A DNA stretch of 64,000 nt from Moniliella sp. 'wahieum' (Eukaryota). Below are positions 584 to 59,451 of the stretch, piece by piece; the stretch's first letter is position 1, and each line of letters begins with the position of its first letter. The translations under genes were made by a program, and so were the position numbers. The notes below the pieces were generated by a model. That model did no database searches and was not told the origin of the DNA. It worked only from the letters and a program-made list of their open reading frames with translations. The stretch is from NCBI GenBank assembly GCA_003971905.1, contig RSEE01000085.1:186001-250000 (forward strand), in the 5' to 3' direction.

Positions 584-1439
584 GAGATCAAGCAGGATGC
601 AGATGTGCCTGCTGAGGGTGACGTCACCCAGGGCAACGACTTGCCTCTTTCAATTTCAGCCTGTGCGTACACAGCCCCAGTCGAGAGCCACTGGTCACCG
701 TCACTGCTCGCCTGGCCCCCGCGGGGATTGGGTCGCACAGCGCTCATGCATCATGCATCGCCCATCGCACCCAGGCGGGGGAGAGTGTGGGTAAGTGATT
801 TCAGCATTTCATATCCTCCACAGGCCCCGTCTCCGATCGACTATCGCAGCCGAGCGCAGACCCAATCAATCGCAGGATTAACACCTGTATAGGCCACAGC
901 GCCTCGGGCTGACCTCCATATTGTGCACTCCCCAAAGCCAATTTCAGCGCCAGCCCGCCAAGCTTCTTGTGCGTGAGTGCGGGGGTGAAGAGACGCCAGT
1001 GCCCAGCGCCCCGCCACTCCCGCCTGGACGGGCAAAAGGAGGATCGGCAGAGGAAACGCCGAGGACTCCGTGGCCACTTAACGCAACACGCGCTTATGGT
1101 GTGGGTGGCACTGCGACATGTGACGTCAGCCTCATGAGCTCGGGGCGAAGAGCCGCTGGGCGCTGTGTCGCATGGGCCATGGGTGATGCTGGGCATGGGC
1201 TAGGCTGCCAGCTGAGCCTGCTGATGAGACGGCCTGCGCTTGGGCCTGCTTGGGCCTGCTTCCACCTGCGTTGCCCCGAGATGGGGCCCGTCTGGCCCCG
1301 ACTCGCTCCGTGCCACGCTCAGCCTGGCGCAGCCCAGCTGCTCAGCTCTGCCCACGCCATATTCCTACAAATACCAGCCGTCTTGCTTCCCTTGGCCCTG
1401 CTCGCCTGTGCCTCCCCCCCTCTGTCGCAGTAGGCCGCC

Positions 1440-4400
1440 ATGTCCGCTCGCGAGACGCACGCCAGCAAGCTCGACGACCTCCCCACGCGCGCCACTCGGC
1501 CCAGCCCCAACTCGGCCGCCTGCAGCAGCTCGCCGCGCTTCAGCCCGCCAAGCCTGCCGAACGCATCACCTCCTCCTTCAGCGCTGCCGCCAGCCACAGG
1601 CTCGCTGCCCTCCGTCGCCGTCGCAGCCAGTCGCCCGGCAGCTTGTCTGAAGCGGCCCATCGATCCGAAGCTGCCGTCCGCACACGTGCTCAGCGCGCCA
1701 GCTCGGGGGCTTCGGCGCCCCGCGTCGCCGCTACTCTCTACGCTGAGCCTCAGCTCGGCCCCACATCCGATGAGGTGCAAGACACCAAGGAGCTAGCGTG
1801 GTAGATGCGCTAGCGGATGCCACCCTGTCCGCCACCGAGCCCCCCATGTCTTCCGAAAGCCACTCCCAAGGATGCTCAAGACAAGACGGTGGAAGAACTG
1901 CGCATGGGCGAAGAAGCCGCCAAAGAGCGCTACTGGCGTCGTTGGGGGCCCTATACTCCCGAGCGCCAGTGGGCCACGGTGCGCGAGGATTACTCGGAAG
2001 ACGGAAATGCCTGGGCCTACTTCCCACGAACATGCCCGCTCGCGTGCCTACCGCTGGGGAGTGGAGGATGGCTTGGGTGGGCTTTCTGACAACCATGGCG
2101 ACTTGCCATCACCCTCGCACTGTGGAACGGCAAGGACCCGATCCTCAAGGAACGTGCGTTTGGCCTTGCCAATCAAGAGGGCAATCAGGTGAAGATGTCA
2201 AGGAGCTGTATTATTACCTTGACAATGTGCCGAGTCACTCGTACATGAAGTACATGTACAAATACCCGCAGTGCGCGTACCCGTACGACGAGTTGCTCCG
2301 TGAGAATGGCCAGCGCTCGCGCGAGGTACCCGAGTTTGAGATCACCGACACGGACGCGTTTGAGGATAACAAGTACTGGGACATTCTGGTCGAGTATGCC
2401 AAGGATGCCGATGAGGAGAATGCCATCTCAATGCGCATCACCGCCTTCAACCGTGGGCCCGAACCTGCCGACCTGCACTTGGTGCCTCAGGCCACGTTTC
2501 GCAACACGTGGGCCTGGTCGGTCACGAGCCAGAGGACAAGCCCTCGCTCATCCTAGCTGCCGAGGGAGCCGTGCAGCTAGACCACCCCACGTTGGGCCGC
2601 TACTTTTGGTATGCGCACTCGTCCCCGGCCCCGGCGGAACCATGGGACGGCCAGTCCGACCCCAAGCTTGTGTCGGAGGAAGAGGTGAAACCGACATTTT
2701 TGTTTACCGAGAACGACACCAACTATGCCCGTCTGTATCAGGGTGAAAACCCCCACATTTATTCCAAGGACGCCTTTCATGACCACCTCATCCCCTCCCA
2801 CCGTCCCGAAGGCGCAGCACCGGACACGAACTATGTCAATCCCAACCTAACAGGAACAAAAGTGGGTGCTCACTACTTTTTCAAACAAGTGCCCGCTCGA
2901 GGGTTGTGTCGTGATGCGGCTCAAGTTGACCCCGCACACATTGCAACGGACAAGTCAATTGACGATGACGATGCGTTGGATGCGACGATGGATGAGCGCC
3001 GGGCCGAGGCGGACGAATTTTACGACCGTTGTCGGGCAAGCAAGTGACCGGCGACTCGGCCAATGTGCTTCGTCAATTGTTGGCAGGCATGTTGTGGAGC
3101 AAGCAGTTTTACTACTTTGTCCAACGTCCTTGGATTACCGGCGACCCAGGCCAGCCGCCGCCGCCGCCCCATCGGGCCAACAACCGTAATGCGTCCTGGA
3201 CCAACCTGTACATGTACGATGTCATCTCGGTCCCAGACAAGTTTGAGTACCCGTACCCAGCACTGTGGGATTTGGCCTTCCATACCATTCCGCTCGCTTT
3301 GGTCGATCCAGCGTTTGCCAAGTCGCAGCTGGACGTGTATACGCGAGAATGGTACATGAAACCCGATGGGGCTATGCCTGCCTACGAGTGGAACTTTGAC
3401 GATGTCAACCCCCCCGTACACGCTTGGGCCACCTTCCGGTCTATCGTATCGAAGAGAAAATCTATGGCACTCGCGACGTGGACTTTTTAGAACGCGTGTT
3501 CCAAAAGTTGCTCATCAACTTTACGTGGTGGGTGTACGTATCTTTTCCCTCGTTCGTCTTACCAACAAGTTGGTGGGACTCTCTCTTGTCTTGACTCTGA
3601 CATGACCTCTCTTCTCCCAGAAACCGCAAGGACGCTTCAGGCATGAACGTATTTGAAGGTGGCTTCCTTGGTCTGGACAACATTGGACCTTTCAACCGCT
3701 CTGAGCCGTTGCCGGGCGGAGGCACGCTTCGCCAGTCGGACGGGACCGCATGGATGGCGTTTTATGCACTGACGATGCTTACCATTGCATTGGAGTACGT
3801 TGTCCTTTCCCCCCCTTTTTTTCTTTTCCAAGCGAGAAGAAAAGCCTCCTCTACATCATTCTTTCTCTCTTTCTCCTCGCGGCTCACTTCCCCCTAGGCT
3901 GGCTCGCTTCAACCCCAACTACGAGGACATTGCATCCAAGTTCTTTGAGCACTTTATTCTCATTTCCGATGCGCTTACCTACCCGGGCGCCGACAACCAA
4001 GGTCTGACGCTCTGGGACGAAGAGGAAGGCTTTTACTACGATGCCGTTCAACTGGCGCGACGCCCGAGGCTGGATACCGCCGCGTCAATGTCCGTTCTCT
4101 GGTCGGTTTGATCCCCATCTTTTCCGTGTTGACCATCGAACCTTCTGCGCTCGAACGCTTCCCCTCGTTTGCCAAGCGCTTCCAATGGTTTGTCGACAAC
4201 CGTCCTGCGCTCAGCCAGCGCAATATGGCCAACATGCGTGTGTAGGCCAAGGCGACAAGCGGCTGTTGGCGCTCGTGTCGCGCGAGCGGCTGGAGCGCAT
4301 CTTGCGCGCATGCTGGACGAGACCGAGTTCTTGTCGGATCATGGCATTCGGTCCCTGTCCAAGTACCACCTGGACCATCCGTGGCAAGTCTGGATCGATG

Positions 4401-4890
4401 GCCAGTCCTTTGGTGTGCAGTACTGGCCGGCCGACTCGAAATCGGGCATGTTTGGTGGCAACTCGAACTGGCGCGGTCCGATTTGGATTGCGACAACTTT
4501 TTGTTGATCGAGTCGTTATTCAAGTTCCATGCCTACTATGGTTCTTCCTTTACCATTGAGTTTCCCACCGGATCGGGCAAGTACCTTACCCTCGCCGAGG
4601 TAGCGTCCGAGTTGGAGCGCGGCTGATGAGCCTGTTTGCTCCTGACGCCCAGGGCCGACGTCCGCTCAATGGCGGCACGACCTCTTGGACTTTAACCCGT
4701 ACTTTTCCCCCCGTTTCGGTGCCCGAGTACTTTGATGGGGACACGGGCCGCGGTTTGGGCGCGTCCCACCAGACCGGATGGACCGGTTTGGTGGCCTACT
4801 CATCCTCAACCGCGCCCTTGGCTTGCACCTCTCCCTCCCTCCTGAAGGAATGTACCCGAGCAGCGGCCGTACAGCCCTCCCCCCTACTAA
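1440..4890 (+). CDS. Glycoside hydrolase family 63-like (MGH1/YMR196W-type) glycosidase; frameshifted; introns 3534-3620 and 3795-3897
   Basis: Motifs [142 protein letters not shown]. Both GTACGT..YAG introns restore the frame. Start (1440 vs ~1820) and stop are uncertain. Confidence 0.9.
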
Positions 4891-8568: not shown

Positions 8569-9172
8569 GAACGGGGGGGAGGGGCTGCGCGATGGCGATG
8601 GCGATGGCGATGGCGATGGCGGAGGGGCTGGAGGGTGGTGGAGATGGGTGATGATCGATGACGGTGGATGATGCCGGTGGAGCGCGTTCTATTTCCCCCT
8701 CGCAACGTCTGATCGCTGATCATCGCTCGTGCACCGTCGTATGGTCTAGCAAGAGCGCACGCACAGTGGGCTGTGCTGCGTGCTATCGGCCATGCAGTCA
8801 GGCGTCGCACACTGGGCGCTTGCGGGCCGTGCGCTGCACCCTGGCGGCGCCACCTGTGCCCTGGTCCGGCGTACGCTCCCCCTCCTGTCTGTCGCAGGCA
8901 CACTGCCCGTGCGCTGGCCTTCCCCGTGCGCCCACGGGCAGCATGGTGCAAGGAGCAGCCCGCGTGGGGCAGCCCCGGGCAGCAGAGCGCAGCACGGGGG
9001 CAGCCCATGTGCTGCCCCTCCGCCGAGCGAGTCCAAGCAGCGTAGGGTCCGATCACACGGCGTAGAGTATATACGGCCCCTGCTTGCTCTTCTTCGGCTG
9101 CATGGCAGGTGGATCTGGTTACGCAACTTGAACTCGCCCCCGTAAGCCAATGTAAGCTGCCACGAACAGCCG

Positions 9173-11075: not shown

Positions 11076-14000
11076 CGGGATCCGACTCGCTAGTCTCGCT
11101 TGTCTGTCTCGCTTGCACCCCCACGGGTTGCAGTGGGAGTGATGGACTGGCTCCGGACGGCGCGCCCGAAGAGGCACTGGGGGAGAAGAGCACGTCGTTG
11201 TGGGACGAGATCGGTACAGGGTTGTTAGTGGTTTGTCCAACCACCCGTTCCGGCAAGACGGGGGGGTGACACCAGTGAGGCCCGTGAAGAGGGCAGGGCA
11301 AGAGGAAGTGGGGCCTTGGGCGCGCGGACGGACGGGGTGGCACAGTAGGTCGATGGGACCGTCACGCTCTGTCTCTGTCTCTGTCTCTGTTGCTGGGAGA
11401 GAAACACAGACCAAGACAGAGATCTCGGCCGGGAAGAGGTGAACGGGGGTGTTCCCGTTGGTGCGCAAGAGGCACGGGAGCAGGCTTCCAGCTCTGACAG
11501 CCGAAGGGGCCCGCCTTTAACCAGGTTCTTTGAGCGAAGTCAGATGCATGAAATGGAGCCAAGAATGAGGGGGGAAATGGGGGCAAGGCGAGAGAAATGC
11601 ACAACAAGCAATTGAGATTGAGATTGAGGGCGTCAACAGGTTTGGAACCGAGCCGGATGCAAGCGTTGGGTTGTTTTGAGGAAAAAATCAGGCACAACCA
11701 CAAAAGTGTTGCACAAAGAAACTAACCCAGGGCGTGAGATCAACGGATGACACACACACACGAGGTAGATCCAGACTCGCTGGGACGGGGTGAAAAACAA
11801 GAGAGTAATGTTGGGGATGGGGAAATGCGAGGGTGGCCTAGGATGGTAGGCGCTGTTCACCACAAGGGTAGCGGGGGGTAATGCCGCGAATTGCGAAGAA
11901 GCACGTGGGAGTACGGAGTAGGAGTGTGAGGAGAAAACGACGGTAGACGGAGACGGCCAGCCAGAGCAGAGACGAGAATAGTGCGGTGTGAGGCGCCTGG
12001 GAGCTGAGTGGCGGTAAGAAGAGAAGCTAGACTGTTGCCATGCCCTCTTGTTAGGGATAAAGTAGGAAAAGAACCGCCTGTAGAAGGTGTTGTTGCGGTG
12101 ATGGGCGCAACTGCCGCGCACACAGGTGGTGAGGAAGAGGCTCAGCGGATTAGCGCCACGGCACCCAACAGATGGAGCGGGGGGGAAGAGGCGGAGGTGG
12201 GTGGCAGGGAGCCAGGGGGGATGAAGGGAGGGAGAGAGCAGCTGTTGAGGGAGGGAGGAGAGAAGAAGCTGAGAGAGAGGAGAGGAGGGAGAGGCTGAGG
12301 TGGTGGTGCGGGGCGGGGGAGGCTGGAAGCACCCAGTAGTCGACGGACAACAGGGCAGGGGTTAGGGTAGCAAAGAAAGCGCACAAGCTATCATAGTGTG
12401 TGCAATGCACAACGCATCCATTATCCACCAGACCCGGATGAGGCAATCGGCGGCTGCGACGGAATGGGAATTGGATCGAGGGAGCCGCCGCTGGCGTATT
12501 GGCCTGTGGCACGACGGTGTGTGTGGCTGCTGCGGACTCAATCGGGGCTCTTTGCCTGTGGGAGCACACATGCCTCTGTGCCGGCGAGGGAGGGTCCTAG
12601 AACGCAACTCCTCTACTGTGTGCGGCCTGCGTCCTCCTCCCCAGGGCCTCTTCTGTGAGGCCCTCTGGGGCCCGAAGCCTGAGGCCTGAGGCGTCGCATG
12701 GTCACCAAACGTGTACGGGAGGGTAGGCACGACGATGAGATCGATGGTCCTGGATGGGAACGTTGCCGCTGGTCAGGGCAGCACCAATCGACCAGTCCAT
12801 ATTCCATCTGGACTGGCACCGGCGTATAGGCGGTGGAGCTTTTCGACACACCCCTATAGCGAGGGCAATAATTAATAAGGAGAAGTACGTTTGCAGCAAC
12901 CCTACCCGCAGCCGCTTGTTCACAGCAGCGGGGCAGTCTCCTCCTCTCCCCTCCCCTCCCCGGCCCTCCCCCTTGCTTAGCGTGAGCGTGGTGCCGATCG
13001 GCTGCGATCGATCCGAATCCCTCTTCAGGCGCAGCGCCAGTATCCTGCCCCCGCGACCGCAGCTCCAAGCCCTTAGTGCTGCCTCCATTCGAACCGGCAG
13101 CTGGTGTGATGATATGATGGATGGGACCAGATCATGAGACGTGTGACAGAACGTGATGTGGGCCAGCGGTCGAGCAAGCTGATGGGTGCGTCACCGGTCA
13201 CCGGCCTGAAGAAGATGCTCGTTGTACCACAGCGAATGGAGATACTAGTAGGCAACGAATGCTACCCTATTCCACCCAGTTCAAGTGCCACCAGGCCCCG
13301 GGACGCTAAGCATCGGTCACTGCATTCAGCATTCCGATGCCACCCTACACCACACTCACAGTTGCACCCATTCTTACTGCAATAATGGATTGCGTTTTTT
13401 CTCCAATCTTGAAGCTACAAGGTAAAAATCAGCTGTACTGCCTAATAGTAGGTGTGCATTTCTCCTGTTTTTGTTGCTGGACCCTCCTCTCGCCTATATT
13501 CAGCATGCCGCATACGTTCGAGTGAATTGGGAAGAGCAACTGGAGTAACAAAAGCACAGGCGGGTCGAACAACTGTGATGATGCAATGATGATCGATGAG
13601 CGCAAAAATTGATCGAAGATCCTGTGCAGTACTCCTATCATTTACCGAGCTCTTCAAGGCATCGATGGACAAACAGCTGTGGATGCCATACCAAAACAGA
13701 ACAGAGAGCTGCATGTGATCCATTCCAATATTCATCACGCTCTCTACTACTGTTACTGATGCAGTGATGGTATAAAGCAAACGACGACTCCACTTTAAAA
13801 CAGTTGAGTTTCCTTGAAACTTGGTTACTCTCGGCCCCATTCAAAAGCTGCACCCCCCGCGCGATCGGCGTAGCTGTGCTCGATGTCTTCACAATCGCCT
13901 TCTCCACCTCCGGACAAGAGGACTTCTGGAAAAAAAGCATATCATGCCGTGTGACGGGCACATGAGCGGGAAGGCACCAAACCCGTGAGGGCGAAGAGAG

Positions 14001-15295
14001 AGTTGAACACCGGGTTTACCGATTATACTACCCCCTCCCCTCAAGAGACTGTGGTAGTGGAACAACAATATTGGCTGGGTGCAGACGGCAACAGGAGATC
14101 GGCGGCCTGGGGAGCAAAACACGCAACGCTGGTGACAAGGTGGAGACGCCACACATAATCGGGAGAGAGGAAGAGGGGCAGAGAGAATTGATATGTTTAT
14201 AGAAGACCAGAGAGCCAACAGTTGATGATGTATTGCATTGAACCATGAAGGGAAGTCTAGAGGCTAGAGAATATTCTTGCCCTTGACTCCCAGGAATGAA
14301 TATTGGACAAGGAGAAGGCATTGTCATGATTTCTGCTATCGCACTAGTCAGTGTATATCGAGAGTGCAGAAACAGCAGCCTTGTCAAGAGACCTGTTTTG
14401 TGGCTTTGGTTTCCCGTCGTCGTTTTGGATAGCTTTCCAACACCTGCCCTGGCCATCTTCATTAATAGCTTTTCACATCCACCGCGCCCAAATCATTCCA
14501 TGTTGCGATATGCAGTCCATGGCTGATGGACCCGCAGTTTTACGGAATGTCAACGGTCTATCCATCGGAGACAAAGACGGGCTATACATGATGAGGATAT
14601 TGGCTCTGTGGGGGTAGTGTGGCAATGACCCCCGCGTCTGCTGTCGAAGCCTAGCTTGAAGCAAGTACTACTGCCTGCTCCATCAGGGCTGGCGGAGCCC
14701 CGACTGGGGTGGGCTGGGTAGCGCTGGTCACGTTTGGCCTGCCGTGACGCGTGACGCGCGTGACACGTGAGCGCGTGAGCAGCAAGATGCAGCACAGGGG
14801 CAGCTTGGGCATATGACTGTCCCTATGCGGGCAAGCCGATCTCAGGATGCCAGGCACGGCACTGGCCCCACCCCGCTGCATGCGACTTGTGACATACATG
14901 ACAGCTGGGGTGGGGCTGTTTGTCCCCGCGTCTCCGTCAGGATGCGAGGGACCCAGCACAGCAGCAGTGTGGGCGCGATGGATCGGCTGGTGCCATCGGA
15001 AGGGGGTGGCTAGACTGGCGTGGTGGCTGGGTGCACGCACCAGCAGCGACGGGCGGAGCAGCAGCAGGCCCAGCGCCTGAGATGCTCGCTCCTAGTGACT
15101 GGGCTGAGCGCTGACTGCCGCAACTCAACTGAGTGCATCCTGACTCAGGACAGCGCGAGGCTGAGAGCCACTGAGCTCAGCGAGCACTGCGCCCAACGCC
15201 CGCTTGCATCCTCAACCACCGCCCCGCCCCCTGTGCCTCCGCCTGTCTCGGCGGCATTCGCTTCCAGCTTACCGGCTGCCACCCCCACGCCACCG

Positions 15296-16855
15296 ATGCT
15301 GTCTGCTTCGCCCTTGCTGGCCGTCAGCCTGCTTTCGGCCGCCGCAGCCCGCCGCCACCGCCCACGCCGCCTTTGCCCCGCAGAACACATGGGCAGGCAA
15401 GGCGCCCCGCCCACCGCCAACGCCACCGCAGCCAACCCCGCAGGCCTACCGCCCACCGACGAGCTCCTCCAGACCGCCAATCTCGCCGCCCGTTTCTGGC
15501 GCATTGCCACCACCCGCGATCCGGCCGCCGGCCACCCGCAGTACACCTTTGGCGGCTACGGCAACACCCCGCCCACGCCCACCGCCGCTGTCGGCACCTA
15601 TACCGTCTTTGACCCCACCCAGTGGACCAGCGGCTTCTTTTCCGCGGGGCTCTGGGGCTGTACGACCGCCTGACCAACTGTGCCGCTGCAGGCAATCTGT
15701 CTGGCGCGCCCTCCTTGCCCGACTGGGCCGCGCAAGCCAGCAACTGGACCGCCACCTTGGCTGTCAACAGCGCCACCAACACCCATGACCTCGGCTTCAT
15801 GGCGTATCCATTCCAAGCCCAGGACAGCCTCACCTCCTCCCAACGCTGGAACAGTACGATCAGCAACATGTCCACCACGCTGGGCAACCGCTTTGTTCCA
15901 GCTGCTGGTGTCGTCCGCACCTGGGACAACCCGGGCAGCCACCCGGACTCGGTGCTGGTGATCATTGACTCGGTCATGAACATGCCCCTGCTATTGGAAA
16001 GTGCAGCGAACTACACCCACAACCAGACCCTGAATACGATTGCCCAGTCACATGCTTCCAAGCTCATCCAGCACCATGTTCGTCCGATGGCTCCACCTTC
16101 CACCTATGCGACTACAGTGGCACCACCGGTGAACTGTATCGATGCGGAACAGCCCAAGGCTATGCTGACAACTCGACCTGGTCCCGCGGCCAGGCATGGG
16201 CACTGCATGGGTTCACTCAGCTTTACACCTTGACCGGCAACCAGACGTACCTGACCACCGCCCAGCGTGTGGCCGATTACTGGGTCACGCATTTGCCCTC
16301 CGACGGCCTGCCGTACTGGGACTTTGATGCGCCCCGCAATGCCACCACGCCACGCGATGTGTCAGCAGCGATGGCGGCTGCCTCTGGCCTGGCCACGTTG
16401 GGTACAATTGACAATCGTTCCAACTACACCACTGCAGCTGTGCAACTGCTGCACGCTGCCTACTCGCTGGCCCTAGCGCAACCGATTACCTTTGCTTCTG
16501 CCTCGACCAAAGCAGCTGGGGCCAACTTGACTATCAGTTCTCCTCCAACGCCACCGATTCGACCGGGTTTGAGGCAGCGCTGATGCACAGCACTGTCAAC
16601 AACCGTGGTGGCAACGCCGACACGGGGTTGATCTATGCCGACACGTACTTTATTGAGGCGGGCAACAAACTTCTGCAACAAGGTGTTTGGCCTTGCTCCT
16701 CGTCCCTGGTCACTCCCGCCGCTGCCTCCAGCAGCACAGGAAGCTCCAGCGGCAAAGGCCACAAGGGGGCAGCTGCCACACTTCATCCCGCTGGGGCAAC
16801 AGCCGTCATCCCAGCCTTGCTGCTGGTTGTCACGCTGGTACATCTTTCGTTCTGA
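15296..16855 (+). CDS. Glycoside hydrolase family 88 (unsaturated glucuronyl hydrolase-like), signal peptide and GPI-like C-terminus, frameshifted
   Basis: WTSGFF..LWG, THDLGF, VIIDSVMNMPLL, TWSRGQAWALHGF (shifted frame), LPYWDFDAP..RDVSAAMAAASGL, GLIYADTYFIEA. Hydrophobic N-terminus; Ser/Gly linker followed by hydrophobic tail AVIPALLLVVTLVHLSF. Confidence 0.88.
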
Positions 16856-19800
16856 GATCTGATCCCAACTCGCCCTTCTAGGACGCACGAACAAAATCCA
16901 TCATTTTCTTGCCTCGTTTGCCATCCACCCCTGGCATGCCCTCACTTCCTTCTGGACTGCGCTGCTGCACCACATCGTAGACGGATGCGACGTTCGTGTG
17001 CAGGGCACTGGGGGGGTTAGGGGGGAGACGCGTAGTTCTCCTCGCCAACGTGAGAGTTCGTCGTCTCCCCATACTGGTGCATCTAGTACCCAGGCTTGTA
17101 ATCGCAATCGCCCCAACGGGGGCATCCCTCGTAGTAAGACCTCTGTGTCACTTGCGCTGAGTACCGAGCGGGTATACATCACCGCGACACACTTGGGCTG
17201 GCGAAACGGTGAACTCTCGCACCCGGGCCTGGTGGCTCCAGGAAATGCTGCGTGGGACGTAGATGGGGTACGTGACCAAGGGGCCGAGAGCGGGACGGAC
17301 GCTCGCGCCCGCGTGATGATGGGCTTGTGAACGTTGCGCTGGCACTGGTCGCGGGGGGAGGGGTAGACGTTAGGGAGAGAGATCCAACCACCACTGTACC
17401 ACACGCGCTCTCACTCTGGTCCGGCGCATTCTGCTTGTTGCATCATAGTATGATGCTGGCCCCAGTAGGTGAGACCACAGTGGATGTGCCAACAGGGCGG
17501 GACCGTCTGGCCCCCGCCATTGGCTTCCAAACCGAGTGTACAGCGCGAGTGGATACGGATGAGCGCATGTGCCAAGAGGCGTTGCATATTTTGTGGCCAA
17601 GCCGTTGAGAAGCGCGGTAGTGGGGTTCGTCCGCTGTTTGGCGGATGTAGAGAGGGATGGATTTGTGGACGGCCGCGGCTAATGGCGGCCTGATCTGAGT
17701 CTCAGATGTGAGGGAGCTGAGATCTGAGACGCGGAGAGGCCGCGTCGCTGGGTACGTACTACATGCGGAATACCCACACGCTCATTAATCATTTGCGTTG
17801 TAAGACAGGAGAGGAACCGAAGGATTCAGTTGAACGTCGAGTGGAGAACCTCTGTGGAGATGTATGCAATGGGACAGTGGTGGCGCATGGTGGTTCAACG
17901 TACTGTGTCACGGGCAAAGACGGACTGCTGTTGCTACAGAACCTTTCCCTACGCTTGATCTGTGCTCCTTTGAGAGCCGCGTTCGCCTTTAATCCTTCCT
18001 CTTTCCACGCTGTATGTTACTTCAGTTAAAGCGCCGTGTCTGCATAACCTTTCTTCTCTATGTTCTTCTCCTAGCGGGTCAATTTGTAAAATCATCCCCT
18101 TTTTACAAATCCGTCCTTGAGCCACAACAGACAACACCCGCGTTACTCCCTAATAATATAGCTCACGCACAATCCCACCGACCTGCTTCAATGACCACTT
18201 CTTGGTCTTCCCGAATCCCTCCGCCCAGGCATCCTTTGCCGTCCATCTCCCTCCAGATTGCAGTCTCCTCCGTGTACGGATGCCGCTGCGATCCAACAAG
18301 ACAGTTGTTCTGTGACAGGACCTGTCCGACCCTGATGTCGTTGTCTGCGTCAAACTTCGCGAGGTGGCGCCCCAATGGAGAGCCCTCACCTCGTTCTAGC
18401 TCCGTCTCACCTCGTTTTTAACTCTGTTTGGATTCACCAACAGTGTTCAAGCTCGAGATAAATACCGTGAGCGGGCTCTCCTCCTTCAAGGGAAAGCACC
18501 CCAAAACCTTGGGTTTTGGGCTCCAGTTCTAGGCTGGCCCACATGGCATACTGAGCTTTAAGCTTCGTGCCGCACTTAGAAGAGACTACAAGGGTTGGAA
18601 CAAGGCGGGGCTGCTTAACATTTAGATCTTGGGGAGTAGAGGCAAGGCGTACCGAGGGCAGCACAAAGGGGTCACAAGAGGCGCTGACGCGCTGACATGC
18701 AATAACAGGATTAGTATATCCCCGGAGTGGAGAGAAAAGGTGCGCGTTTGTTGGGGGTCTTTTCCATCTGCGAGAGCTTTTGCGGCTCCGTCTGGGGTGC
18801 TCTTTGTGATGAGGTGGCAGGTTTTGCATGCGTGTGTGGATCGGCCTGCCAAAGAAGAGGGGGCAGTGCAAGAAAGTGCGCCAAACTCGTGGCTGTGCGG
18901 TGCGCGAGCGAAGTAGAAGAGCTGTGGTGCGCGCGTGAGCCACAAGAGCTCGAACAAACAGGCTGTTGGTGTTGTACTAGAAGACTTCGTTGCGGCATAT
19001 CGGCCACACCATCATACAGCGTTTGTTGCTTTTTGTGGAAGGGGGGGCAACAGACGTAGTTGGGGGCTGCCCGCACCACAGTATGATCCCTCTTTTTTCC
19101 CTTCCGCCAAGCCGTGGCGGGTGTGCTACACGCGGAACGCCGGCATCCAGTGTGGCAACCCTCCTAGTAATAGCTCGCACGCACACCGCGCCCTAATAGC
19201 TGTATGCTTCTCGCAGAGGTTGCAGTGCCACGAAAACATACCATCACATTGTTTATCACTCAGTACGACGTCACGTGCGTCAGCGCAGATCGAGCATCGT
19301 CTCTCTCCTGGTGCGTCTTTGGTCCCGATGGGCTCGGGGTACTCCGGGTACTACCAGTACGGTTACCTCTCCGTCGCCAGGTGGAAAATATTGGGGCCGC
19401 GTGACGATCGCAGCGGCTGCCCCACGCAGCCGTAGCCCCAACGATGCACGCAACAACGTGTGGGCAACAGTCAAGCTTCAAGCTTCAAGGGAACGCCTGC
19501 GCAAGCTCCCTGCGCATCGTCACATTGCCACATGGTAAGCTCGGAAAAGACACGACGGGGCGCCTCCCGGCTACATACACTGTTAGTCTAGGGAGCCGGA
19601 CGGGCAGAAGGATGAGGAGAAGGGGATGGATTACTACTAGTAGAGCCACAGTTGGGTCTGGGGGTACAGAGGCATCTATAGGAGGCCGGACTAGGCATAA
19701 ACAGGGGCAGTGAGTCACACAGGAGAGAATGCAGGGCACAGGTCAGTGACACGCTGGGACACCCGCAGCGTGGATGCCGATGGAACCGAGGCGAACCTGG

Positions 19801-40479: not shown

Positions 40480-43307
40480 ATGGAGGAGCCGGGAGGCTAA
40501 CCCGGCCTTCCCCCGCGTTACCATACTCCAAATTATGTTTGAAGCCATCCCCCACTCCCTTTTCCTCGCTATGAAAGAGGTCTTTCCGTTGTAGGTGGTT
40601 TACCTACCTTCGCCCCCATCCCTTGTGTTTTTTTGTTTCCGCCCTGCGCCCTCGTGGAGGGCGATTGTATCGATGACTCCTTCTCCCACACTGCGGATCT
40701 GGATAGGTAGTTGGACAGGGGGATGGGACTGGGCGGACTAAACAGGTGTCCGTTCCGCTCTATCCAAGCCTTGATAGTGTCACGCGAGTAGCTGAGCTGG
40801 GCCGTACGAGGGTGTGGCTGGGCCGAGGCCAAGGACGATGCCAAAGGCGCCATGATGAAGTGGGCACAGTCTTTGTAGGCCAATGTTAAAAGGTCGCCAT
40901 CTGCTCGGTGGTAGCCTTGATGGTAAGAGTTTCAAAAGAGGTGTCTATCAGTTGACTGATACGGACTTGCCGACCAAACTTGATTGTCACACCTTCCGCG
41001 GCCGGACTTGCATCGCCCCCACCACCTTCCAATCCAGAGGGCGGCCAGAGAATGTTCAGAGCTCAAATTAGAGAAGTGCTAATTTACTCTTTGACCCGTG
41101 TATAGGGAAAAGTCGGTCGGGAGCACTGGTACCCTTTTACCCTCCGTTGCCCGTCCAGAGTACCTATATACTGGCTACCTCGTCATGGGTAGAGACGCGA
41201 GCAGGTTGTCACACAGTTCATATATAGTTGTGCGCTTGCAGGTTCGTTAGGATTTTGAGTGGACGACCCCAACCTAACTTCTTCAATGGCATAGGGACTC
41301 CGGTGATTTAGTTCTGGGGTCACCTCTCCTTCTCTCCTCCATGGCTGCCGTTTTCTATTGTCCTGATGAAAGGATATGTTAAGCTAGCACAGCTTCCATA
41401 CGCGAGGTGTAGAAGAAAGGGAAATACCCGGTTTGCAAGTGTTGTAAGCTTTGGGACATTCAAAAAAGTACCACAAGCGCATCCAACCCGACGGTGTGGC
41501 CGTCGCTTGCCAGCATTCCAGCCGGCGTGAAAGGTGCCCCCAGTTGGGGGATGTGGCTCATGGCGAACGTGGGGTGTTTGAAGTGAAGCGAGGCACAGCC
41601 GATTTCACACACAAAAACGACGGTTAATACTGCTAACCGTGAGTGCGCCCTGTTCCACATTGCGGCACCGAAACCTGTTGGGGCCTTTGCCTTTCAAAGG
41701 GTCTTGACGGGTGTGAACCCACGGTACCAGAAATGGTGGGACCGGTGGTATGGTATACTCTATGAAGCCAAGTCGGTGCAGGATAATGGGAGCGCTCAAT
41801 GAACAAATCGGTCAAGAGTGTGGGTGTCCCGTACCGAGAAGTTTTTTCTCAAGTAATTTGGGATTCCTTGCTGCACCTCCGCCAAGGTACCAACACGAGG
41901 GGGGTGAGTATCATGCTGTATCATCTCTTCTGTTGGTGAGTTCGTCCTCGTTCAACGTTCACCGCCCGGCTGATGCATCTTTTGACCGAGAGAGAGCTGT
42001 GGTGAAGCTGTTTGGCGCGGGTATAGGTGTGATACCCGTCTCGACTCCTTCTGAGTGAGTTACATATTGGGCGGACAGAGCCAGCTACACCTAGTTTGTT
42101 ATCTCTTCTAGGGCAGCCTATCTCATGCGGGTGTTGTTGTGATGCTTCGAAGAAAAAACCTGTCCTTATGGATGTAGAGGGCCGTGTCCATCAGGGCAAA
42201 GATGTGCATATGCAGGCAGACGGTGGATGACCCTGACTGATTAGGACTAGATACACGAGGAGCACGCAGATGGGCAAAGGATCGGGTGGCAGGAGGAGAG
42301 GCCATGGAGACTTGGAAGGCTGGAGGGAAGCGAACACCGGAACAGCCAGGTAGCTGTTGCTCAGTATCAGGAAGACGCCAGTGCGGGAGAGGCATCTAGA
42401 TTGTGACGCGTGACGCGTGACGTGTGAGGTCGCATGCCACATGCCATGCGTGCCACACAGCGGAAAGGCCAGGCGCCAAAGGGTTCGGTACAACGGCTGG
42501 GGGTCCTCGATGGCGTGACCGCCATCACAAGCAGCACAGCGCCTGTGTGGTTTTCGCCGTGCCTGCGAAGGCGTTTTGATCGCTTTTGTTATCCCCTGGC
42601 CACCCCGTCGGGTTATAACCGGTAACCTCAGAGGGGCCATATCCAGGCGCATCTTCGCCGTGCTTGGTCGATGGCAGTGGCCAACCTGACCTGGCGATGC
42701 TGGAGCTGGGTGGACGCAATGGGTGGGATGGGCATGATAGAGAGATTGCGCGGGCTTCATGCGCAGACCGCTTGTGGATTGTCGATTGGGTTGGATTCGG
42801 GTGAGGCAGTGGACATGTGCACGCTGCTAAAATGTAAAGAGCAGTTCGTCAGTCTGGCGTAGCTAGTCACGAAGCCACTAGCCACTAGTCACTAGCCACT
42901 AGTCACGCCGTGTTCAAGCCCTCGCAGGCGCCAGGCCCCAGGACCTTCGCAGGCTTTCGCAGCATCGTTGAACCCGAGCAGGGCTTGTCTTTTCTCCGCG
43001 GCGCTAGTCCATTCATCTTTAGTCCGGGTGGCGGAATAATGGCATTACCAATAGTAAGACACGAAATTGTGTGCTTGGCTCTGCCACAGCGCCTTCTTCT
43101 TGTATCCTGTTTTTCGCCTCCCCACCACCACCTGCTCTTCTTTCCCAGCCCTCCCGTCTCGCCCCACAGCAGACCCCCTCAAGCCTCAGCTTCACTCTGT
43201 TGCTGGAGCAACTGCGCCCACTACCTTCTCCTTCCTCCCCAGCGCCGCTCATCTCGGTCGCCCGTGCCCCAGAACCAACGTGCCTTTGGCCCCGTCTCCG
43301 CACTTTG

Positions 43308-43378: not shown

Positions 43379-43382
43379 TATC

Positions 43383-50058: not shown

Positions 50059-51342
50059 TGACTGACCCGTGACTTGGTTGTGGGTGCCATCATATCCTTC
50101 CCTGCTATAGCATTCTCGTCTCATACCAAAAAATTCATCCTGACATCAATACTGTGGCATCCCTGAGGCCTGATGCCTCATGTTGCCCTGTAACCTCTTG
50201 TTAAATTGATCCTTGTCATTCACTGGCAGCTGCTGCGACCACATAAGATGAATGTGATTAGGATGAAGAAGGATCGGCAAAGTGTTAACCGTTTGTTGAG
50301 AATCAGCAGTCTTCATCGATTTCGTTCATGTTGTAAACACGCGTGAGCGTGCAACATGTGAACGTTAATCAGAATCGTGTCGATGATCATCTGGTCGGTC
50401 ATGATGACCACTGGTTGGTCAACTTGACCACCCTCCCTAGTTTCACTTCCACACGGTGTTGGTTCTGTGGTGGCGATGATAAATGATCAACTTCAATGAT
50501 TAATCGATCACCTCGATTATCGAGCGATTAATCAATTACCTTGATTATCGAGATATCAACGGTTACTGACATGGACAGAGCACAAGCAGCCCATCGTCTC
50601 CGATTGCGGTGCGTCGGGAGCGTCAAGTTCCTCATTGGCAAGAAGGAAGAACTATCAAGGCATATATATGCAGGGGGGGAGAAGAAAAAACAGAAGCCCA
50701 TTCGAAGTGCTGGAGCGCGACAGGGGTACACCTTGGACGCATCCCCATTCGTTTTTCTCGTCAACGCGTCTATGTGGATTATCAACACATTCGGGGCCCA
50801 AAGATGCTTATAACGTTTATGTAGGGCACCGACGCCCCCATGTGCTGGCCATCACTTGTCATCCACGGCCCTCAGGTGAACATACTGAACCGCATTGATT
50901 AATGATTATTCCATCATCTCCATCATCCACATGCCTGCTGCTTGTTTGTGCCGGCTTGCTTTCGTTACCAGAGTATGTTGCATCAAGGTGAATGCAGTAC
51001 TTGGCTTCAATCGCTGGCGAGACCCCGGGCCAGGGGGGATGGGCAGTAGGAATTATGAACTGCTCCAATGCCAGACCCGCACAAGGGCAGTGTGGGAGTT
51101 CTAGGGTTAGCATCGGTGCTCAGCTGTGCTGCGGGTCAGACCGGGGAGGGGCATTTTGTAAGCAAGGCAGTTGCACGACGGCTGGCGCCGTGCCGGGTGG
51201 AGTGGTTGGACCCCCGGGGCGGCAGCAAGGCAGGGGGGCAGCTGCCGGGCCCAGGGCTGGCTTCTCAGGCCCAGCAATCTCGCTGTCACAGCCGGAGCAG
51301 CAGCTAGGGCCCGCCGGCGTCCCACCACCATCCCTGCTTGCC

Positions 51343-55425: not shown

Positions 55426-56717
55426 AGGGGCGGGAGGTGGCGATGGTGGCGATGGTGGCGATGAAGGTAGGCAGGGCCAGAGGTGGCAAACACATAGCCG
55501 GCAAGACTGAATACTGACATGCTGACAGCTGAAGCTGACGGGCAGCGCCAGAATGAAATGTCAAAGAAAGACACAGCCCCCGTGCAGAGCAGCCCTCAGC
55601 CCCCCAGGGCTGGTCGGGGGCGGAGGGTAGGAGAAGCAAAAGGAGGCAGCTGGCAAACCGCATTTTATGGGCAGGCACCGAAAGGACCTATATACGAAGC
55701 GCTTGTGTGAGGTTCCATCGCCTGTTTCATCTGCATCTGATAGTCTGTACACCATGAGTACTCACTTGTCCCCACTCTCGTATGCATCACAGCTTCATCC
55801 GTATACTTATCGCAGCGTGCTGGAATTTCATAGGAGCACACCATACACTTTCAAAACTGCCCGTGTGCGAATATCTCGTCCACACGTTCAATCTACAAAC
55901 ACCTTTACCGATGTGGGCAGGGAAACGTTGAGTATGAACACGCATCAAGCAACAGGGTGATCAACGAAGATTAGCATAAGCCCACGGGTACGAGATTGAG
56001 GCCTTCATCTTGATATTGAAGGTGGGAAAGAGACAGCCTCTCATTGGTGCTTGCGCCGTAGTAGACGGCCTCAGCAGCATGACATAGTTTGGCTCTCGGA
56101 CTGCCTCGTAGAACACCCTGAACGTGCCTGAACGTGCCTGAACGACTTGAACTCTCTTTGGATAGGACGCGGTGGGCAGACCAGGACAGGATGTAATGTA
56201 CCGATGACATTGTCCACACCGACACTCACTGGTACTCAGGTGCGGCGAGAACGTTCATATATCATGTCGCCCTTCACGCGGACAACTCCTTCAATGATCT
56301 TCTGCAGTTGTAGTAGAGCCCCTCCCTCCCCTCCTTGCATTGTGCAGCAACGGTGGCTATGCAGGATGAGCAGCGACTATGTACTAGTACTATCAAGAGA
56401 AGATTTTGGGAACAAAATGATCTTGAAGGCCTGACGCATCTACCCAACAAAACGAGCCTCGGAGACGTCGGCGGGAGATGTAGATAGAAACGTAGACAAG
56501 TTATAGACTGCTACAGCCCAGAAGACCCCATCGCCCTGTTGATGTACTTGGCGCCAAGTTGGCCGTGTTGGTTTATGCGATGCTGGAATCATGGCGCTAT
56601 CATGACCAATAGATGATTGATGATTCATCCGATGATGCAAATGGTCTCCAACCCCAAACTAGGCCAACACTTGACTGTAGATTCGGAACCTTTGCCATTG
56701 GATTGGTGCGCGTACAC

Positions 56718-58045: not shown

Positions 58046-58589
58046 ATGCCCTCCATTCGCACCAGCCGGACCAAGGCTCCCCAGAGGGGTTTGAGGAGAT
58101 TGCCGACATTCTGGACGAGTACGAGCGCAAGATGCGAGAGGCGGAGGCCGCGTCGCATGAAGGCAAGCGCCGTACCGAGTCGGTCTGGCCCATTCTGCAG
58201 CTGGCGCACATGCGCACCCGCTATCATTTACGACCTCTACTACAAGCGCGAAGCGATTTCGCGAGAGCTGTACGACTGGCTGATCAAGGAGCGCTATGCG
58301 GATGCCAAGTACGTATTGAGTATTGACTTGAGGCTGGCTGCGCAGGGGGGAAGTACATACTGACCAGAGGTTGCTTGCTGCACTGTTCGATGGCTGCTCT
58401 TCCAGTCTGATGGCCAAGTGGAAGCGGCAAGGATACGAAAAGTTGTGCTGTGTGCGGTGCATTCAGGCGCGCGACAACAACTACGACGGCGCTACGTGCA
58501 TCTGCCGTGTGCCAAAGGCGGTGCTGCGGCCAGGGACGGTGGTGGAATGCCAAAACTGTGGGTGCCGGGGCTGTGCGTCGCAAGACTGA
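58046..58589 (+). CDS. BUD31: Splicing factor Bud31/G10/Cwf14; intron 58309-58405
   Basis: [77 protein letters not shown]. Confidence 0.96.
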
Positions 58590-59451
58590 GTTGAGGAATA
58601 CGATGGATGGATGGCCGATGGTGGTGGGCATGAGGTTCAAGCTAGCTGGCTGAGCTGAAGGGGAACGTGCATGAAGAGGAAACAGGAAGTGCAAAAGGTA
58701 GCACAAAAGGCTGAGCCGGGGGCAGCACGATGGCCAATGGCCGGACGCCAGGCACTACGCCGTGTATAGAAGGGGGTGGCGGGCGTGAGTGCTGAAGGAG
58801 GAGCTCGACGTGGTTCGGAGGCGAGCGCTGAAAAGGGGAGGCTCAGAGACTGACAGTCGATGAAAAGCGCCCCGGGTGAATAGCAACAGGGAGGAATGCA
58901 TAATGCTAGTTGGCAGTGGCGATGGTGAGCGCCGTGTGCACGCCTGAGGGCCGAGGGGTCTGCTGTGGGTGCGGCTGTGACATGTGGCGGTGGCTGGGGG
59001 TGAGCGCTGGCGCGCTGAACGCGGCCGCGCCCCGACAAAATCACATGGCAATCCCATCCCATCCACCGCAGCCGCGGCGTGCAAGCGCTGGGCGTGCAGT
59101 TCCCTCGAACGCTGACGCGCTCAGGCCAGGGCGGCGCGAGCGCACTGAGGGCTGAGCTGAGCTGAGCTGAGGCCACGCGCGGCGTGCTGGAAAATATTTC
59201 CGCCGTCGGCGCTTGCGTTTGCTCCGCCCGTCGACCCATCCGGCATCCCGACCCTGACTGGGCGCTGGCCAGCCAGGCCCGTGGCTGGCCACGCGGCCGC
59301 TGCGGCTGCGGGCACCGCATCCAACGCACGCGCACGCGCAAGCGCTCCCCGCCGCCCCGCTCCCGTGCCACCGCTCCCGTGCCCCCGCTCCCGTGCCCCC
59401 GCCGCCACCGCCACCGCCACCCCGCCACCACCTCCAGCCACCATCCCCACC

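What the first reader, a model, noticed from the sequence alone, without database searches (positions are those of the whole stretch)
744..59170. Window-wide non-coding 'TNA + palindromic spacer' arrays with a shared grammar but variable sequence
Seen: non-coding DNA repeatedly shows T-N-A (mostly TGA/TCA, also TAA/TTA) alternating with a self-complementary spacer, giving 7-bp periodic, doubly symmetric arrays. Thirteen different palindromic tetramers are used: AGCT (19471, 25543, 36552), TGCA (744, 20176), CGCG (14745, 19854, 42404), CTAG (37385), CCGG (13191, 24847), TCGA (39587), ACGT (36545), GGCC (12680, 24341), GCGC (23671), GATC (24770), GTAC (37328), CATG (28319) and TTAA (17782, 50896). 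A 2-nt GC spacer occurs at 59153. Symmetry is conserved while sequence is not, which fits neither an ordinary microsatellite nor one transcription-factor site. Inference: a fold-back or template-switch process nucleated at TNA triloops, footprints of elements with a TNA target duplication, or structural (hairpin/cruciform) promoter marks. A 7-bp period also places TGA/TAA stops in all three frames, which could explain why they avoid CDS.
Basis: partly seen in the sequence, partly recalled or inferred. Interest (0 to 1): 0.8.

Follow-up and report, generated by a model that had tools for sequence, protein, structure and literature searches.

The report
Seven-base palindromic insertion scars at TNA
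The non-coding DNA of this smut-related fungus is peppered with 7-base insertions, each a 5-base direct copy ending in T-N-A plus a 2-base inverted copy, which look like scars left again and again by a cut-and-paste transposon or a similar DNA-breaking enzyme.

Summary
The 10-mer TNA-palindromic tetramer-TNA with the same N occurs 68 times in 51 loci, against about 2 expected. ANT, GNC and CNG flanks are not enriched, and neither is the perfect palindrome TNA..TN'A. The minimal unit is a 12-mer, Z'-TNA-Z-Z'-TNA: a 5-nt direct repeat plus a 2-nt filler that is always the reverse complement of the first two bases. There are 44 such loci against fewer than 1 expected, and 42 of 44 lie outside predicted coding sequence. 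Single odd palindromes outside the arrays sit at expectation, so the event creates the palindrome. TNA-type arrays are the least stable hairpin formers, and 715 kb of control metagenome DNA shows no such bias, so this is a lineage-specific process in a member of the Ustilaginomycotina. My best reading (about 0.45) is excision scars of a transposon that duplicates about 7 bp centred on T-S-A and leaves hairpin-capped flanks. Those scars recreate a symmetric target, so arrays grow. No transposon lies in the window and no whole genome, strain data or read cover was available. Seven array-directed literature searches of nine found no description.

The parts
744..755 (.). core locus, unit TCATGCA (run 744-759)
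8650..8661 (.). 12-mer core, unit TGATCGA
12678..12691 (.). core locus, unit TGAGGCC (run 12677-12692)
12867..12878 (.). 12-mer core, unit TAATTAA
13191..13202 (.). core locus, unit TCACCGG (run 13190-13204)
13588..13599 (.). 12-mer core, unit TGATCGA
14743..14756 (.). core locus, unit TGACGCG (run 14743-14758), followed by degenerate copies
15103..15114 (.). 12-mer core, unit TGAGCGC (one of 3 runs inside predicted coding)
16851..16862 (.). 12-mer core, unit TGAGATC
17718..17729 (.). 12-mer core, unit TGAGATC
17782..17793 (.). 12-mer core, unit TCATTAA
19471..19489 (.). array (TCAAGCT)2.7
19852..19870 (.). array (TAACGCG), run 19850-19870, 3.0 copies; 9-bp form at 19841-19860
20176..20206 (.). 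array (TGATGCA)4.4
20217..20228 (.). 12-mer core, unit TCACCGG
23682..23693 (.). 12-mer core, unit TCAGCGC, inside a compound TNA-rich stretch 23660-23720
23915..23926 (.). 12-mer core, unit TCAACGT, next to a 9-bp form 23906-23923
24149..24160 (.). 12-mer core, unit TGACTAG
24339..24350 (.). core locus, unit TGAGGCC (run 24337-24350)
24397..24408 (.). 12-mer core, unit TAATGCA
24770..24781 (.). 12-mer core, unit TCAGATC
24993..25004 (.). core locus, unit TCAAGCT (run 24991-25005)
25340..25353 (.). core locus, unit TGATCGA (run 25340-25354)
25541..25573 (.). array (TGAAGCT)4.7, the longest
25836..25847 (.). 12-mer core, unit TGAGCGC
26420..26431 (.). 12-mer core, unit TGACCGG
28319..28330 (.). 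12-mer core, unit TGACATG
36380..36391 (.). 12-mer core, unit TCAACGT
36543..36575 (.). compound array: one TCAACGT event, then (TCAAGCT)3.6, sharing a TCA
36828..36839 (.). 12-mer core, unit TCAGATC
36999..37015 (.). array (TAATCGA)2.4
37326..37346 (.). compound: a TGAGTAC event and a mirror-image TGATGCA event sharing one TGA
37383..37410 (.). array (TAACTAG), run 37383-37412, 4.3 copies
37616..37629 (.). core locus, unit TGAGTAC (run 37616-37631)
37861..37872 (.). 12-mer core, unit TCAAGCT
38177..38188 (.). 12-mer core, unit TGACATG
38943..38954 (.). core locus, unit TTAGGCC (run 38943-38956); apparently absent from the paralogous segment at 18.5 kb
39585..39603 (.). array (TGATCGA), run 39584-39603, 2.9 copies
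41950..41961 (.). 12-mer core, unit TCAACGT
42404..42422 (.). array (TGACGCG), run 42403-42422, 2.9 copies
42616..42627 (.). 12-mer core, unit TAACCGG
50162..50173 (.). 12-mer core, unit TGAGGCC
50896..50907 (.). 12-mer core, unit TGATTAA
57420..57431 (.). 12-mer core, unit TGACATG (inside predicted coding by the rough map)
38876..38889 (.). minor form: 6-nt copy (Z'TNA+1) + 2-nt filler + 6-nt copy (period 8). It is an 8-nt insertion relative to the paralogous segment at 18466
14766..14779 (.). minor form, period 8 (6+2+6). Others start at 13578, 18683, 23865, 24315 and 55514
37636..37651 (.). minor form, period 9 (7-nt copy Z'TNA+2, 2-nt filler, 7-nt copy). Others start at 19843, 24374, 24984, 37356, 37595 and 37700
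56117..56144 (.). minor form, period 10, (CCTGAACGTG)2.8
59151..59171 (.).

Best explanation
The arrays are scars of repeated insertion and excision of a cut-and-paste DNA element, or of an enzyme with the same chemistry.

Shown: each primary event adds 7 bp at a T-N-A (N mostly G or C). A 5-nt stretch Z'TNA is repeated directly. Between the two copies sit exactly 2 nt that are the reverse complement of Z'. This creates a 4-bp palindrome of arbitrary sequence.

Inferred mechanism: the element duplicates about 7 bp centred on TNA (nnTNAnn) when it inserts. When it leaves, both flanks are sealed as hairpins. Host enzymes open each hairpin 2 nt off the tip, which gives two 4-nt self-complementary overhangs. 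At a first, asymmetric site one overhang is removed back to the duplex and the other is copied. The result is Z'TNA-Z-Z'TNA or its mirror image TNAZ-Z'-TNAZ, a net gain of 7 bp. The scar now contains a perfectly symmetric 7-mer, Z'TNAZ. If that site is hit again, the two overhangs are identical palindromes that can anneal, and each cycle adds exactly one more unit. Slippage may add or remove further units.

The scars are confined to non-coding DNA because a 7-bp insertion carrying stop triplets destroys a reading frame.
For: (1) In 12-mers of the form W5-f2-W5, enrichment appears only when W ends in TNA and f is the reverse complement of the first two bases of W. Counts are TGA 36 (0.2 expected), TCA 27 (0.07), TAA 8 (0.03) and TTA 7 (0.0). 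Fillers matching at neither base are at chance, 1-2 vs 1.2-1.4.

(2) There are 44 distinct loci, against 0.06-0.56 under Markov orders 1-5.

(3) Run lengths peak at 12-13 nt rather than 14. Of 18 runs of exactly 12 nt, 14 are in the two predicted phases and 1 is in the symmetric phase.

(4) Only a 2-nt filler and a 4-nt palindromic spacer are strongly enriched (68 vs 1.6). Spacers of 0, 2, 6 and 8 are near background.

(5) Minor products are those expected from partial trimming of a 7-bp duplication: 6+2+6 (7 loci), 7+2+7 (7 loci) and one period-10 array.

(6) Single 7-mers Z'TNAZ outside the arrays number 160 vs 158 expected, so the palindrome is made by the event and is not a pre-existing target.

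(7) Compound arrays at 36543-36575 and 37326-37346 read as successive events of opposite handedness sharing one TNA.

(8) One of two paralogous non-coding segments carries an 8-nt insertion of the minor form that the other lacks.

(9) In 715 kb of unrelated metagenome DNA, TNA+pal4 makes up 46 of 1954 period-7 runs (2.4%), against 51 of 171 in the window.

(10) From papers: hAT, Transib and MULE transposases and RAG leave hairpins on flanking DNA that host enzymes open, and end joining leaves footprints (PMC5499845, passages). Ac/Ds footprints are palindromic copies of flanking DNA (PMC4561436, background passage). hAT7 and Kyakuja families with 7-bp duplications exist in Basidiomycota (PMC12730594, passages).
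Against: The window holds no transposon, no dispersed repeat and no transposase domain. This rests, and on Pfam scans of 126 ORFs of at least 150 aa. No whole genome was held, so the element itself is unseen.

The density, about 1 locus per kb of non-coding DNA, is very high for excision scars.

One product dominates, although end joining of hairpin ends usually gives a spread. The product that keeps both overhangs (+11) was found 0 times.

No base preference beyond T-S-A marks a 7-bp target (28 simple loci).

Two points are recalled and not tested here. Canonical hAT nicks one base into the flank, which predicts odd rather than even palindromes. Canonical hAT also prefers nTnnnnAn 8-bp targets.

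The target sequences of hAT7 and Kyakuja could not be read, because Figure 1 of PMC12730594 is an image and its supplement holds none for them.

The paralogue indel has Z' = CG, which is its own reverse complement, so it cannot distinguish an inverted filler from a direct 8-bp duplication.
Confidence: 0.45

Rival explanations
1. A transposon-independent, endogenous break-and-repair or replication error specific to this lineage. A nuclease or stalled polymerase acts at T-S-A, and repair re-copies 5-8 nt after a 2-nt turn-around on the opposite strand, adding 7 bp. The new symmetric site is hit again.
For: No element is seen in 64 kb. Density is very high and fairly even, about 1 per kb of non-coding DNA. 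The outcome is a single, very stereotyped product. The signature is lineage-specific.
Against: I know of no enzyme that makes both a 5-8-nt direct duplication and an exact 2-nt inverted copy without an inserted DNA (inference). A lone hairpin-forming nuclease cutting both strands 7 nt apart would delete the 7 bp rather than duplicate them (inference). Pairing-based template switching predicts a dependence on the last copied base, which the 6-, 7- and 8-nt forms do not show.
Confidence: 0.25
2. Footprints of a PIF/Harbinger-type element with a 3-bp TNA duplication, the palindromic tetramer being two bases left from each inverted terminal repeat.
For: TNA is the classical PIF/Harbinger target duplication. 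The middle base of mPing's duplication is free, and TCA and TGA were used in assays (PMC4561436, passages).
Against: The 44 core loci use 13 different tetramers, which would need 13 or more different element termini. The two bases before the first TNA always match the tetramer's second half, giving a 12-mer rather than a 10-mer core, which this model does not predict. N is G/C in 25 of 28 simple loci. mPing excision is mostly precise (PMC4561436, abstract and passages).
Confidence: 0.08
3. Ordinary heptanucleotide microsatellites whose self-complementary units form hairpins that favour replication slippage and expansion.
For: Nineteen loci have two or more perfect head-to-tail copies, up to 4.7. 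The long arrays fold as hairpins; for example the 20176 array has an MFE of -9.2 kcal/mol. Slippage probably contributes to copy-number change.
Against: The GNC and CNG classes fold better (-6.2 and -5.5 vs -3.1 kcal/mol) yet are not enriched. Most loci have fewer than 2 copies, in a fixed phase. TGA-containing heptamer arrays in 123 metagenome loci almost never have palindromic tetramers, and TNA+pal4 is 2.4% of period-7 runs there.
Confidence: 0.07
4. Selected cis-elements, such as protein-binding sites, cruciform promoter marks or three-frame stop cassettes.
For: The arrays lie in non-coding DNA and often close to ORF ends. A TGA every 7 bp puts stops in all frames on one strand (direct from the sequence).
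Against: The tetramer varies freely, and only T-S-A is fixed. Most loci have fewer than 2 units and cannot block three frames. One paralogous segment has them and the other does not.
Confidence: 0.05
5. Assembly or base-calling artefact.
For: No independent reads covered the arrays.
Against: The loci sit in unique flanks, use many different sequences and obey a precise rule on both strands. None of this resembles a known sequencing error mode (inference).
Confidence: 0.03

Closest known systems
Excision footprints of transposons that leave hairpins on the flanks (hAT such as Ac/Ds, Transib, MULE) and the P nucleotides of V(D)J coding joints
   Same: The target duplication is kept and short palindromic additions are copied from the flank itself. 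The palindrome therefore has no fixed sequence, and host enzymes open the hairpin (PMC5499845 and PMC4561436, passages).
   Different: Here one product dominates: exactly 2 nt, net +7. The site is T-S-A. The scars are iterated into arrays and occur about once per kb of non-coding DNA. No element has been seen. The even palindrome does not fit the one-base offset of hAT cleavage (recalled).
hAT7 (Pucciniales) and Kyakuja (Agaricomycotina) transposons, which make 7-bp target duplications in Basidiomycota (PMC12730594, passages read)
   Same: They are basidiomycete elements with 7-bp duplications. hAT7 groups with Ac/Tam3-type hATs, whose excision goes through flank hairpins.
   Different: Neither is reported from Ustilaginomycotina in the passages read. 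No footprints are described, and Kyakuja's chemistry is unknown.
PIF/Harbinger (Tourist MITEs, mPing)
   Same: It targets T-N-A, with the duplication centred on N.
   Different: It duplicates only 3 bp and excises precisely (PMC4561436). Its usual middle base is A/T (recalled), whereas here it is G/C in 69 of 83 runs.
Heptanucleotide microsatellites
   Same: They are tandem 7-bp units with variable copy number.
   Different: Unit choice here obeys a symmetry rule, TNA + palindromic tetramer, which is absent from 715 kb of control DNA. Most loci have 1.7 copies in a fixed phase.
Quasi-palindrome correction and fold-back (snap-back) templated insertions
   Same: A short inverted copy of neighbouring bases is written next to its template.
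   Different: Only 2 nt are inverted and the rest is a direct copy. Perfect palindromes through N are not enriched (2 vs 2.1).

Membership tests
Flank-hairpin transposon excision footprint (hAT / Transib / MULE type) | Direct duplication of the target retained on both sides of the junction | tested here: met
   A 5-nt direct repeat Z'TNA occurs in 44 loci. Forms with 6-8 nt occur in 15 loci.
Flank-hairpin transposon excision footprint (hAT / Transib / MULE type) | Palindromic added bases that are the inverted copy of the adjoining flank, with any sequence | tested here: met
   The filler must equal the reverse complement of the first 2 nt; non-matching fillers are at chance. Thirteen tetramers are used in core loci. 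The palindrome does not pre-exist.
Flank-hairpin transposon excision footprint (hAT / Transib / MULE type) | An element with termini and a DDE transposase present in the genome, its copies flanked by the same kind of duplication | not testable with these tools
   No genome was held. Within the window none was found.
Flank-hairpin transposon excision footprint (hAT / Transib / MULE type) | Empty, filled and scar alleles at the same site in relatives | tested here: inconclusive
   The only comparison is one pair of paralogous segments, where the scar is present in one and absent in the other. No strain data exist.
Canonical hAT | 8-bp duplication with nTnnnnAn preference (recalled) | tested here: not met
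   The period is 7 and T and A are two bases apart. No T/A preference appears at other positions.
PIF/Harbinger | 3-bp TNA duplication only, with precise excision | tested here: not met
   The duplicated stretch is 5 nt or more. TNATNA is only weakly enriched, 47 vs 30.
Slippage-driven microsatellite | Unit sequence not bound by a symmetry rule; growth from two or more copies | tested here: not met
   51 of 171 period-7 runs obey the rule, against 46 of 1954 in control DNA. The modal length is 1.7 copies.
Hairpin or cruciform structural repeat | Enrichment follows stem stability | tested here: not met
   The TNA class is the least stable of the four symmetric classes, yet it is the only one enriched.

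The most novel reading that the evidence does not exclude
A lineage-specific, self-reinforcing insertion process that writes 7 bp (5 direct + 2 inverted) at any T-S-A. Each event creates a symmetric site that invites the next. The process has marked non-coding DNA about once per kb and generates almost all of the genome's excess 7-bp repeats. It would be driven either by an undescribed transposon family with a TNA-centred 7-bp target or by a host nuclease and repair pathway with no known counterpart.
Probability: 0.35. Interest if true: 0.75.

Novelty: new variant of a known kind. Interest (0 to 1): 0.62.

Why it matters
If these are scars, this small fungal genome keeps a dense and readable record of thousands of break-and-repair events that share one precise rule. 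That record would show how hairpin-capped ends are opened and joined in a basidiomycete. It would also show how a mobile element can create its own preferred targets and seed microsatellites, and how much of intergenic sequence turnover one enzyme can cause.

If no element exists, the rule defines a new mutational signature whose enzyme could be sought.

In either case the 12-mer rule is a simple genome-wide marker for finding related lineages and for dating the activity.

Tried and rejected
Whole genome: none is held, so there are no genome-wide counts and no search for the element.

Sequencing runs: only two runs held a small share of 19-28 kb. When laid on 19000-38900 they covered only about 26.3-29.8 kb and about 35.0-35.4 kb, with spliced RNA-like contigs, and no array. 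No RNA holder was listed. These runs therefore give no evidence on expression, polymorphism or read support.

L061, L087 and L091 looked promising but turned out to be other heptamer repeats. The scan serves only as a control.

Transposon searches in the window:
- 5-10-bp duplications with 11 of 12 inverted termini gave only GC-rich chance pairs and array-to-array pairs (one search had timed out).
- 7-bp nnTNAnn pairs with at least 8 of 10 inverted termini gave 1 hit against 0.7 expected, and that hit lay between two arrays.
- Self-BLAST gave only the arrays and one 49-nt pair.

Extended target motif: none was found.

Models rejected:
- A 5-bp duplication (Transib-like) plus a 2-nt filler fits the main product but not the 6-, 7- and 8-nt copies.
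- A 3-bp duplication with any hairpin opening cannot give the flanking Z' (worked by hand).
- Copying of a displaced flap predicts a base dependence that is not seen.
- hAT with 8 bp and a one-base offset predicts odd palindromes (recalled chemistry).

Earlier notes of this scan: nothing was recorded for this genome or protein. The 'heptamer palindromic' hits are bacterial cassettes and a viral word, unrelated to this finding.

Protein atlas search for taxonomy: uninformative.

Literature: nine searches were run. Seven asked about repeats or footprints like these arrays; two searches asked about transposons with 7-bp target duplications. None found a paper describing TNA + palindromic-tetramer heptamer arrays. 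Replitrons (10.1101/2022.12.15.520654, passages) were checked and are unrelated. The library lacks most subscription journals, so the phenomenon may be in print elsewhere.

Full report
WHAT THE WINDOW IS. The 64 kb are nuclear DNA of a fungus, 58% G+C. They carry a MET5-type sulfite reductase (43.0-47.9 kb), a dynamin-like MGM1 (52.5-55.1 kb), a protein kinase, a proteasome subunit, ATP synthase subunit g and other eukaryotic genes. MGM1 is 62-64% identical to the best named relatives, all of them Ustilaginomycotina (Moesziomyces, Pseudozyma, Testicularia, Ustilago, Sporisorium). Relatives at about 58-61% include Tilletia, Violaceomyces, Ceraceosorus and Malassezia. Two unnamed proteins are 90% identical. 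The organism is therefore a member of the Ustilaginomycotina without a close named genome in that list. No whole genome is held. The window holds no dispersed repeats or transposon-like structures.

- Of 29 perfect period-7 runs of at least 14 bp, 19 have a unit that can be written TNA + 4-bp palindrome. The other three symmetric classes (ANT, GNC, CNG + palindrome) have none.
TNA-pal4-TNA with the same N occurs 68 times in 51 loci, against 2.0 +/- 1.6 in 100 dinucleotide-preserving shuffles. ANT gives 2 vs 2.1, GNC 2 vs 7.6 and CNG 4 vs 7.1.
- A tetranucleotide-matched null (order-3 Markov) expects 1.5, and an order-5 null expects 3.7.
- Period 7 shows 171 runs of at least 12 bp against 54 expected, while periods 8, 10 and 11 sit at about 1.7x. 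The excess is the TNA+pal4 class alone: 51 runs against 0.8 expected, with all other classes about 2.3x like the background.
- N is G or C in 69 of 83 runs and in 25 of 28 simple loci.
- By a rough codon-usage map, 49 of 52 runs lie outside predicted coding sequence.

THE RULE BEHIND THE PATTERN. Three results sharpen the description.

First, the perfect 10-bp palindrome TNA-pal4-TN'A is not enriched (2 vs 2.1). The units are therefore direct copies, not inverted ones.

Second, run lengths peak at 12-13 nt, not 14 (18 and 15 runs, against 3 of exactly 14). The 12-nt runs are not in random phase. Eleven read Z'-TNA-Z-Z'-TNA in the TGA orientation, three are the mirror image, one is the symmetric phase and three are other phases.

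Third, I tested all 12-mers of the form W5-f2-W5 on both strands.
- With f equal to the reverse complement of the first two bases of W, and W ending in TNA, the counts are TGA 36 (0.2 expected), TCA 27 (0.07), TAA 8 and TTA 7.
- With a filler matching at neither base, the counts are 1-2 against 1.2-1.4.
- Other triplets show only the general fourfold background.
- Merged, this makes 44 distinct loci, against 0.06-0.56 under Markov orders 1-5.

Only a 2-nt filler works. TNA-spacer-TNA with a palindromic spacer gives 68 vs 1.6 for 4 nt, 9 vs 5.5 for 2 nt, 2 vs 0.6 for 6 nt and 0 vs 0.2 for 8 nt.

Rarer relatives keep the same 2-nt inverted filler and the same left boundary, 2 nt before TNA, but copy 6, 7 or 8 nt instead of 5. 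There are seven, seven and one such loci, giving periods 8, 9 and 10, with essentially none expected.

Beyond T-S-A no flanking base is preferred.

THE PALINDROME IS MADE, NOT FOUND. Single 7-mers Z'TNAZ outside the period-7 runs number 160, against 158 +/- 13 expected. The same holds for 5-mers and 9-mers and for the other three centre types. If a separate process made them, singles would be in excess. Neither is seen. The event therefore starts from an ordinary Z'TNA and writes Z de novo.

A small piece of direct evidence supports this. Two paralogous non-coding segments (about 18400-18553 and 38812-38973) are about 80% identical. They differ by an 8-nt insertion in the second copy at exactly one of the period-8 loci (38876). 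The TTAGGCC pair at 38943 also appears to be extra there, although MAFFT and a local aligner place that gap differently. Because Z' at 38876 is CG, which is its own reverse complement, that indel shows an insertion but cannot show the inversion.

WHAT IT IS NOT.
- It is not a general property of 7-bp repeats. Among the first two matches printed per locus, only two loci (L044, L087) had the same palindromic tetramer in three or more of the four spacers. In the 715,081 bases fetched, TNA+pal4 makes up 46 of 1954 period-7 runs of at least 12 bp (2.4%), against 51 of 171 (30%) in the window.
- It is not driven by hairpin stability. With DNA parameters, three-and-a-half-unit arrays of the TNA class have a mean MFE of -3.1 kcal/mol. 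ANT gives -3.4, CNG -5.5 and GNC -6.2. The least stable class is the only one enriched.
- It is not a protein-binding site, because the tetramer is free.
- Fold-back copying around a TNA loop is excluded by the constant N.

MECHANISM. A sequence-blind palindrome has to come from base pairing or from copying the opposite strand. The textbook source is a covalently closed hairpin at a DNA end that is opened off-centre (P nucleotides). Transposases of the hAT, Transib and MULE superfamilies, and RAG, leave such hairpins on the flanking DNA. Host enzymes open them, and end joining leaves footprints (PMC5499845, passages). Ac/Ds footprints are palindromic copies of the flank (PMC4561436, background passage). 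A direct duplication next to the junction is what a target-site duplication looks like after the element has left.

The following scheme fits all the forms found.
1. The element duplicates 7 bp, nnTNAnn, centred on N. This keeps the two-fold symmetry expected of a transposase dimer.
2. After excision both flanks are hairpins. Opening 2 nt from the tip gives 4-nt self-complementary overhangs, r1r2r2'r1' on one side and xyy'x' on the other.
3. These overhangs cannot pair with each other. One is removed back to the duplex, which loses r1r2, and the other is used as template, which gains xy. The result is y'x'TNA-xy-y'x'TNA r1r2, a net +7, or the mirror image.
4. Removing only 3, 2 or 1 nt gives the period-8, period-9 and period-10 forms.
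5. The scar contains a perfectly symmetric 7-mer. If that site is used again, both overhangs are the same palindrome, they anneal, and exactly one unit is added.

This explains arrays of up to 4.7 units in perfect register. It also explains the compound arrays in which events of opposite handedness share a TNA (36543-36575 and 37326-37346). Slippage may add to copy-number change.

The anatomy of the product and its statistics are shown. The hairpin, the 7-bp duplication and the re-targeting are inferred.

WEAK POINTS.
- No element is in the window and none could be sought elsewhere.
- One locus per kb of non-coding DNA is a great deal for excision scars.
- One product dominates, and the +11 product that keeps both overhangs was not found (0).
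- No base preference marks positions +/-2 and +/-3.
- As I recall it, hAT nicks one base into the flank, which predicts odd palindromes, and it prefers nTnnnnAn. Canonical hAT is therefore not a match.
- Basidiomycota do have hAT7 and Kyakuja families with 7-bp duplications (PMC12730594, passages). Their target sequences are shown only in a figure and are not in the supplement text.
- PIF/Harbinger shares the TNA target but duplicates only 3 bp and excises precisely (PMC4561436, abstract and passages).
- A transposon-independent break-and-repair process cannot be excluded, and it is my second choice.

NOVELTY. Palindromic excision footprints and P nucleotides are known. A genome in which one stereotyped +7 scar at T-S-A accounts for the whole excess of 7-bp repeats, and is iterated into microsatellite-like arrays, was not described in any paper found by nine full-text searches. 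Seven of those searches asked about repeats or footprints like these arrays; two searches asked about transposons with 7-bp target duplications. The library lacks most subscription journals. I rate the finding a new variant of a known kind. There is a fair chance (about 0.35) that the agent is an undescribed element family or a host process with no known counterpart.

VERDICT. The best explanation has a confidence of 0.45. Interest is 0.62.

Noticed in passing
window 18244-18553 and 38654-38973: Two paralogous, apparently non-coding segments 20 kb apart, about 80% identical over the best 160-170 nt. Overlapping ORFs show no protein similarity. The second copy carries one or two of the TNA-type insertions. 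The origin of the segment (regulatory block, old element fragment) is unknown.
   Followed up: partly
window 16800-27100 and 35400-43300: Long stretches with almost no codon-usage-supported coding sequence (rough map). This is unusual for the gene-dense genomes I recall in this subphylum. The arrays concentrate here, with 10 in 24-28 kb and 14 in 36-40 kb.
   Followed up: partly
window 5553-5636: A clean octamer array (GACAGACC)10.6, unrelated to the TNA rule.
   Followed up: no
window 43917-43983: A 12-nt tandem repeat (GGAAACGCGAAT)5.6 inside the long sulfite-reductase ORF. Its period is a multiple of 3, so it would read as a 4-residue repeat.
   Followed up: no
window 29469-29549 (-): A tRNA-Val (anticodon TAC), the only Rfam or ARAGORN hit in the window.
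   Followed up: yes
window 27061-27152: A 92-nt GT..AG intron joined in contigs of two coded runs. The gene around 26.7-28 kb is the only part of 19-38.9 kb with appreciable cover in those runs.
   Followed up: no
window 50382-50552: 20-nt and 28-nt tandem repeats built from TNA words and palindromic tetramers (TTAA, TCGA). They look like old, degenerate compound arrays of the same process.
   Followed up: no
L087:1-363 (metagenome contig): A 363-nt contig made almost wholly of different heptamer repeats, including (CTCAGGC)4. It is a different, unexplained heptamer-rich sequence.
   Followed up: no
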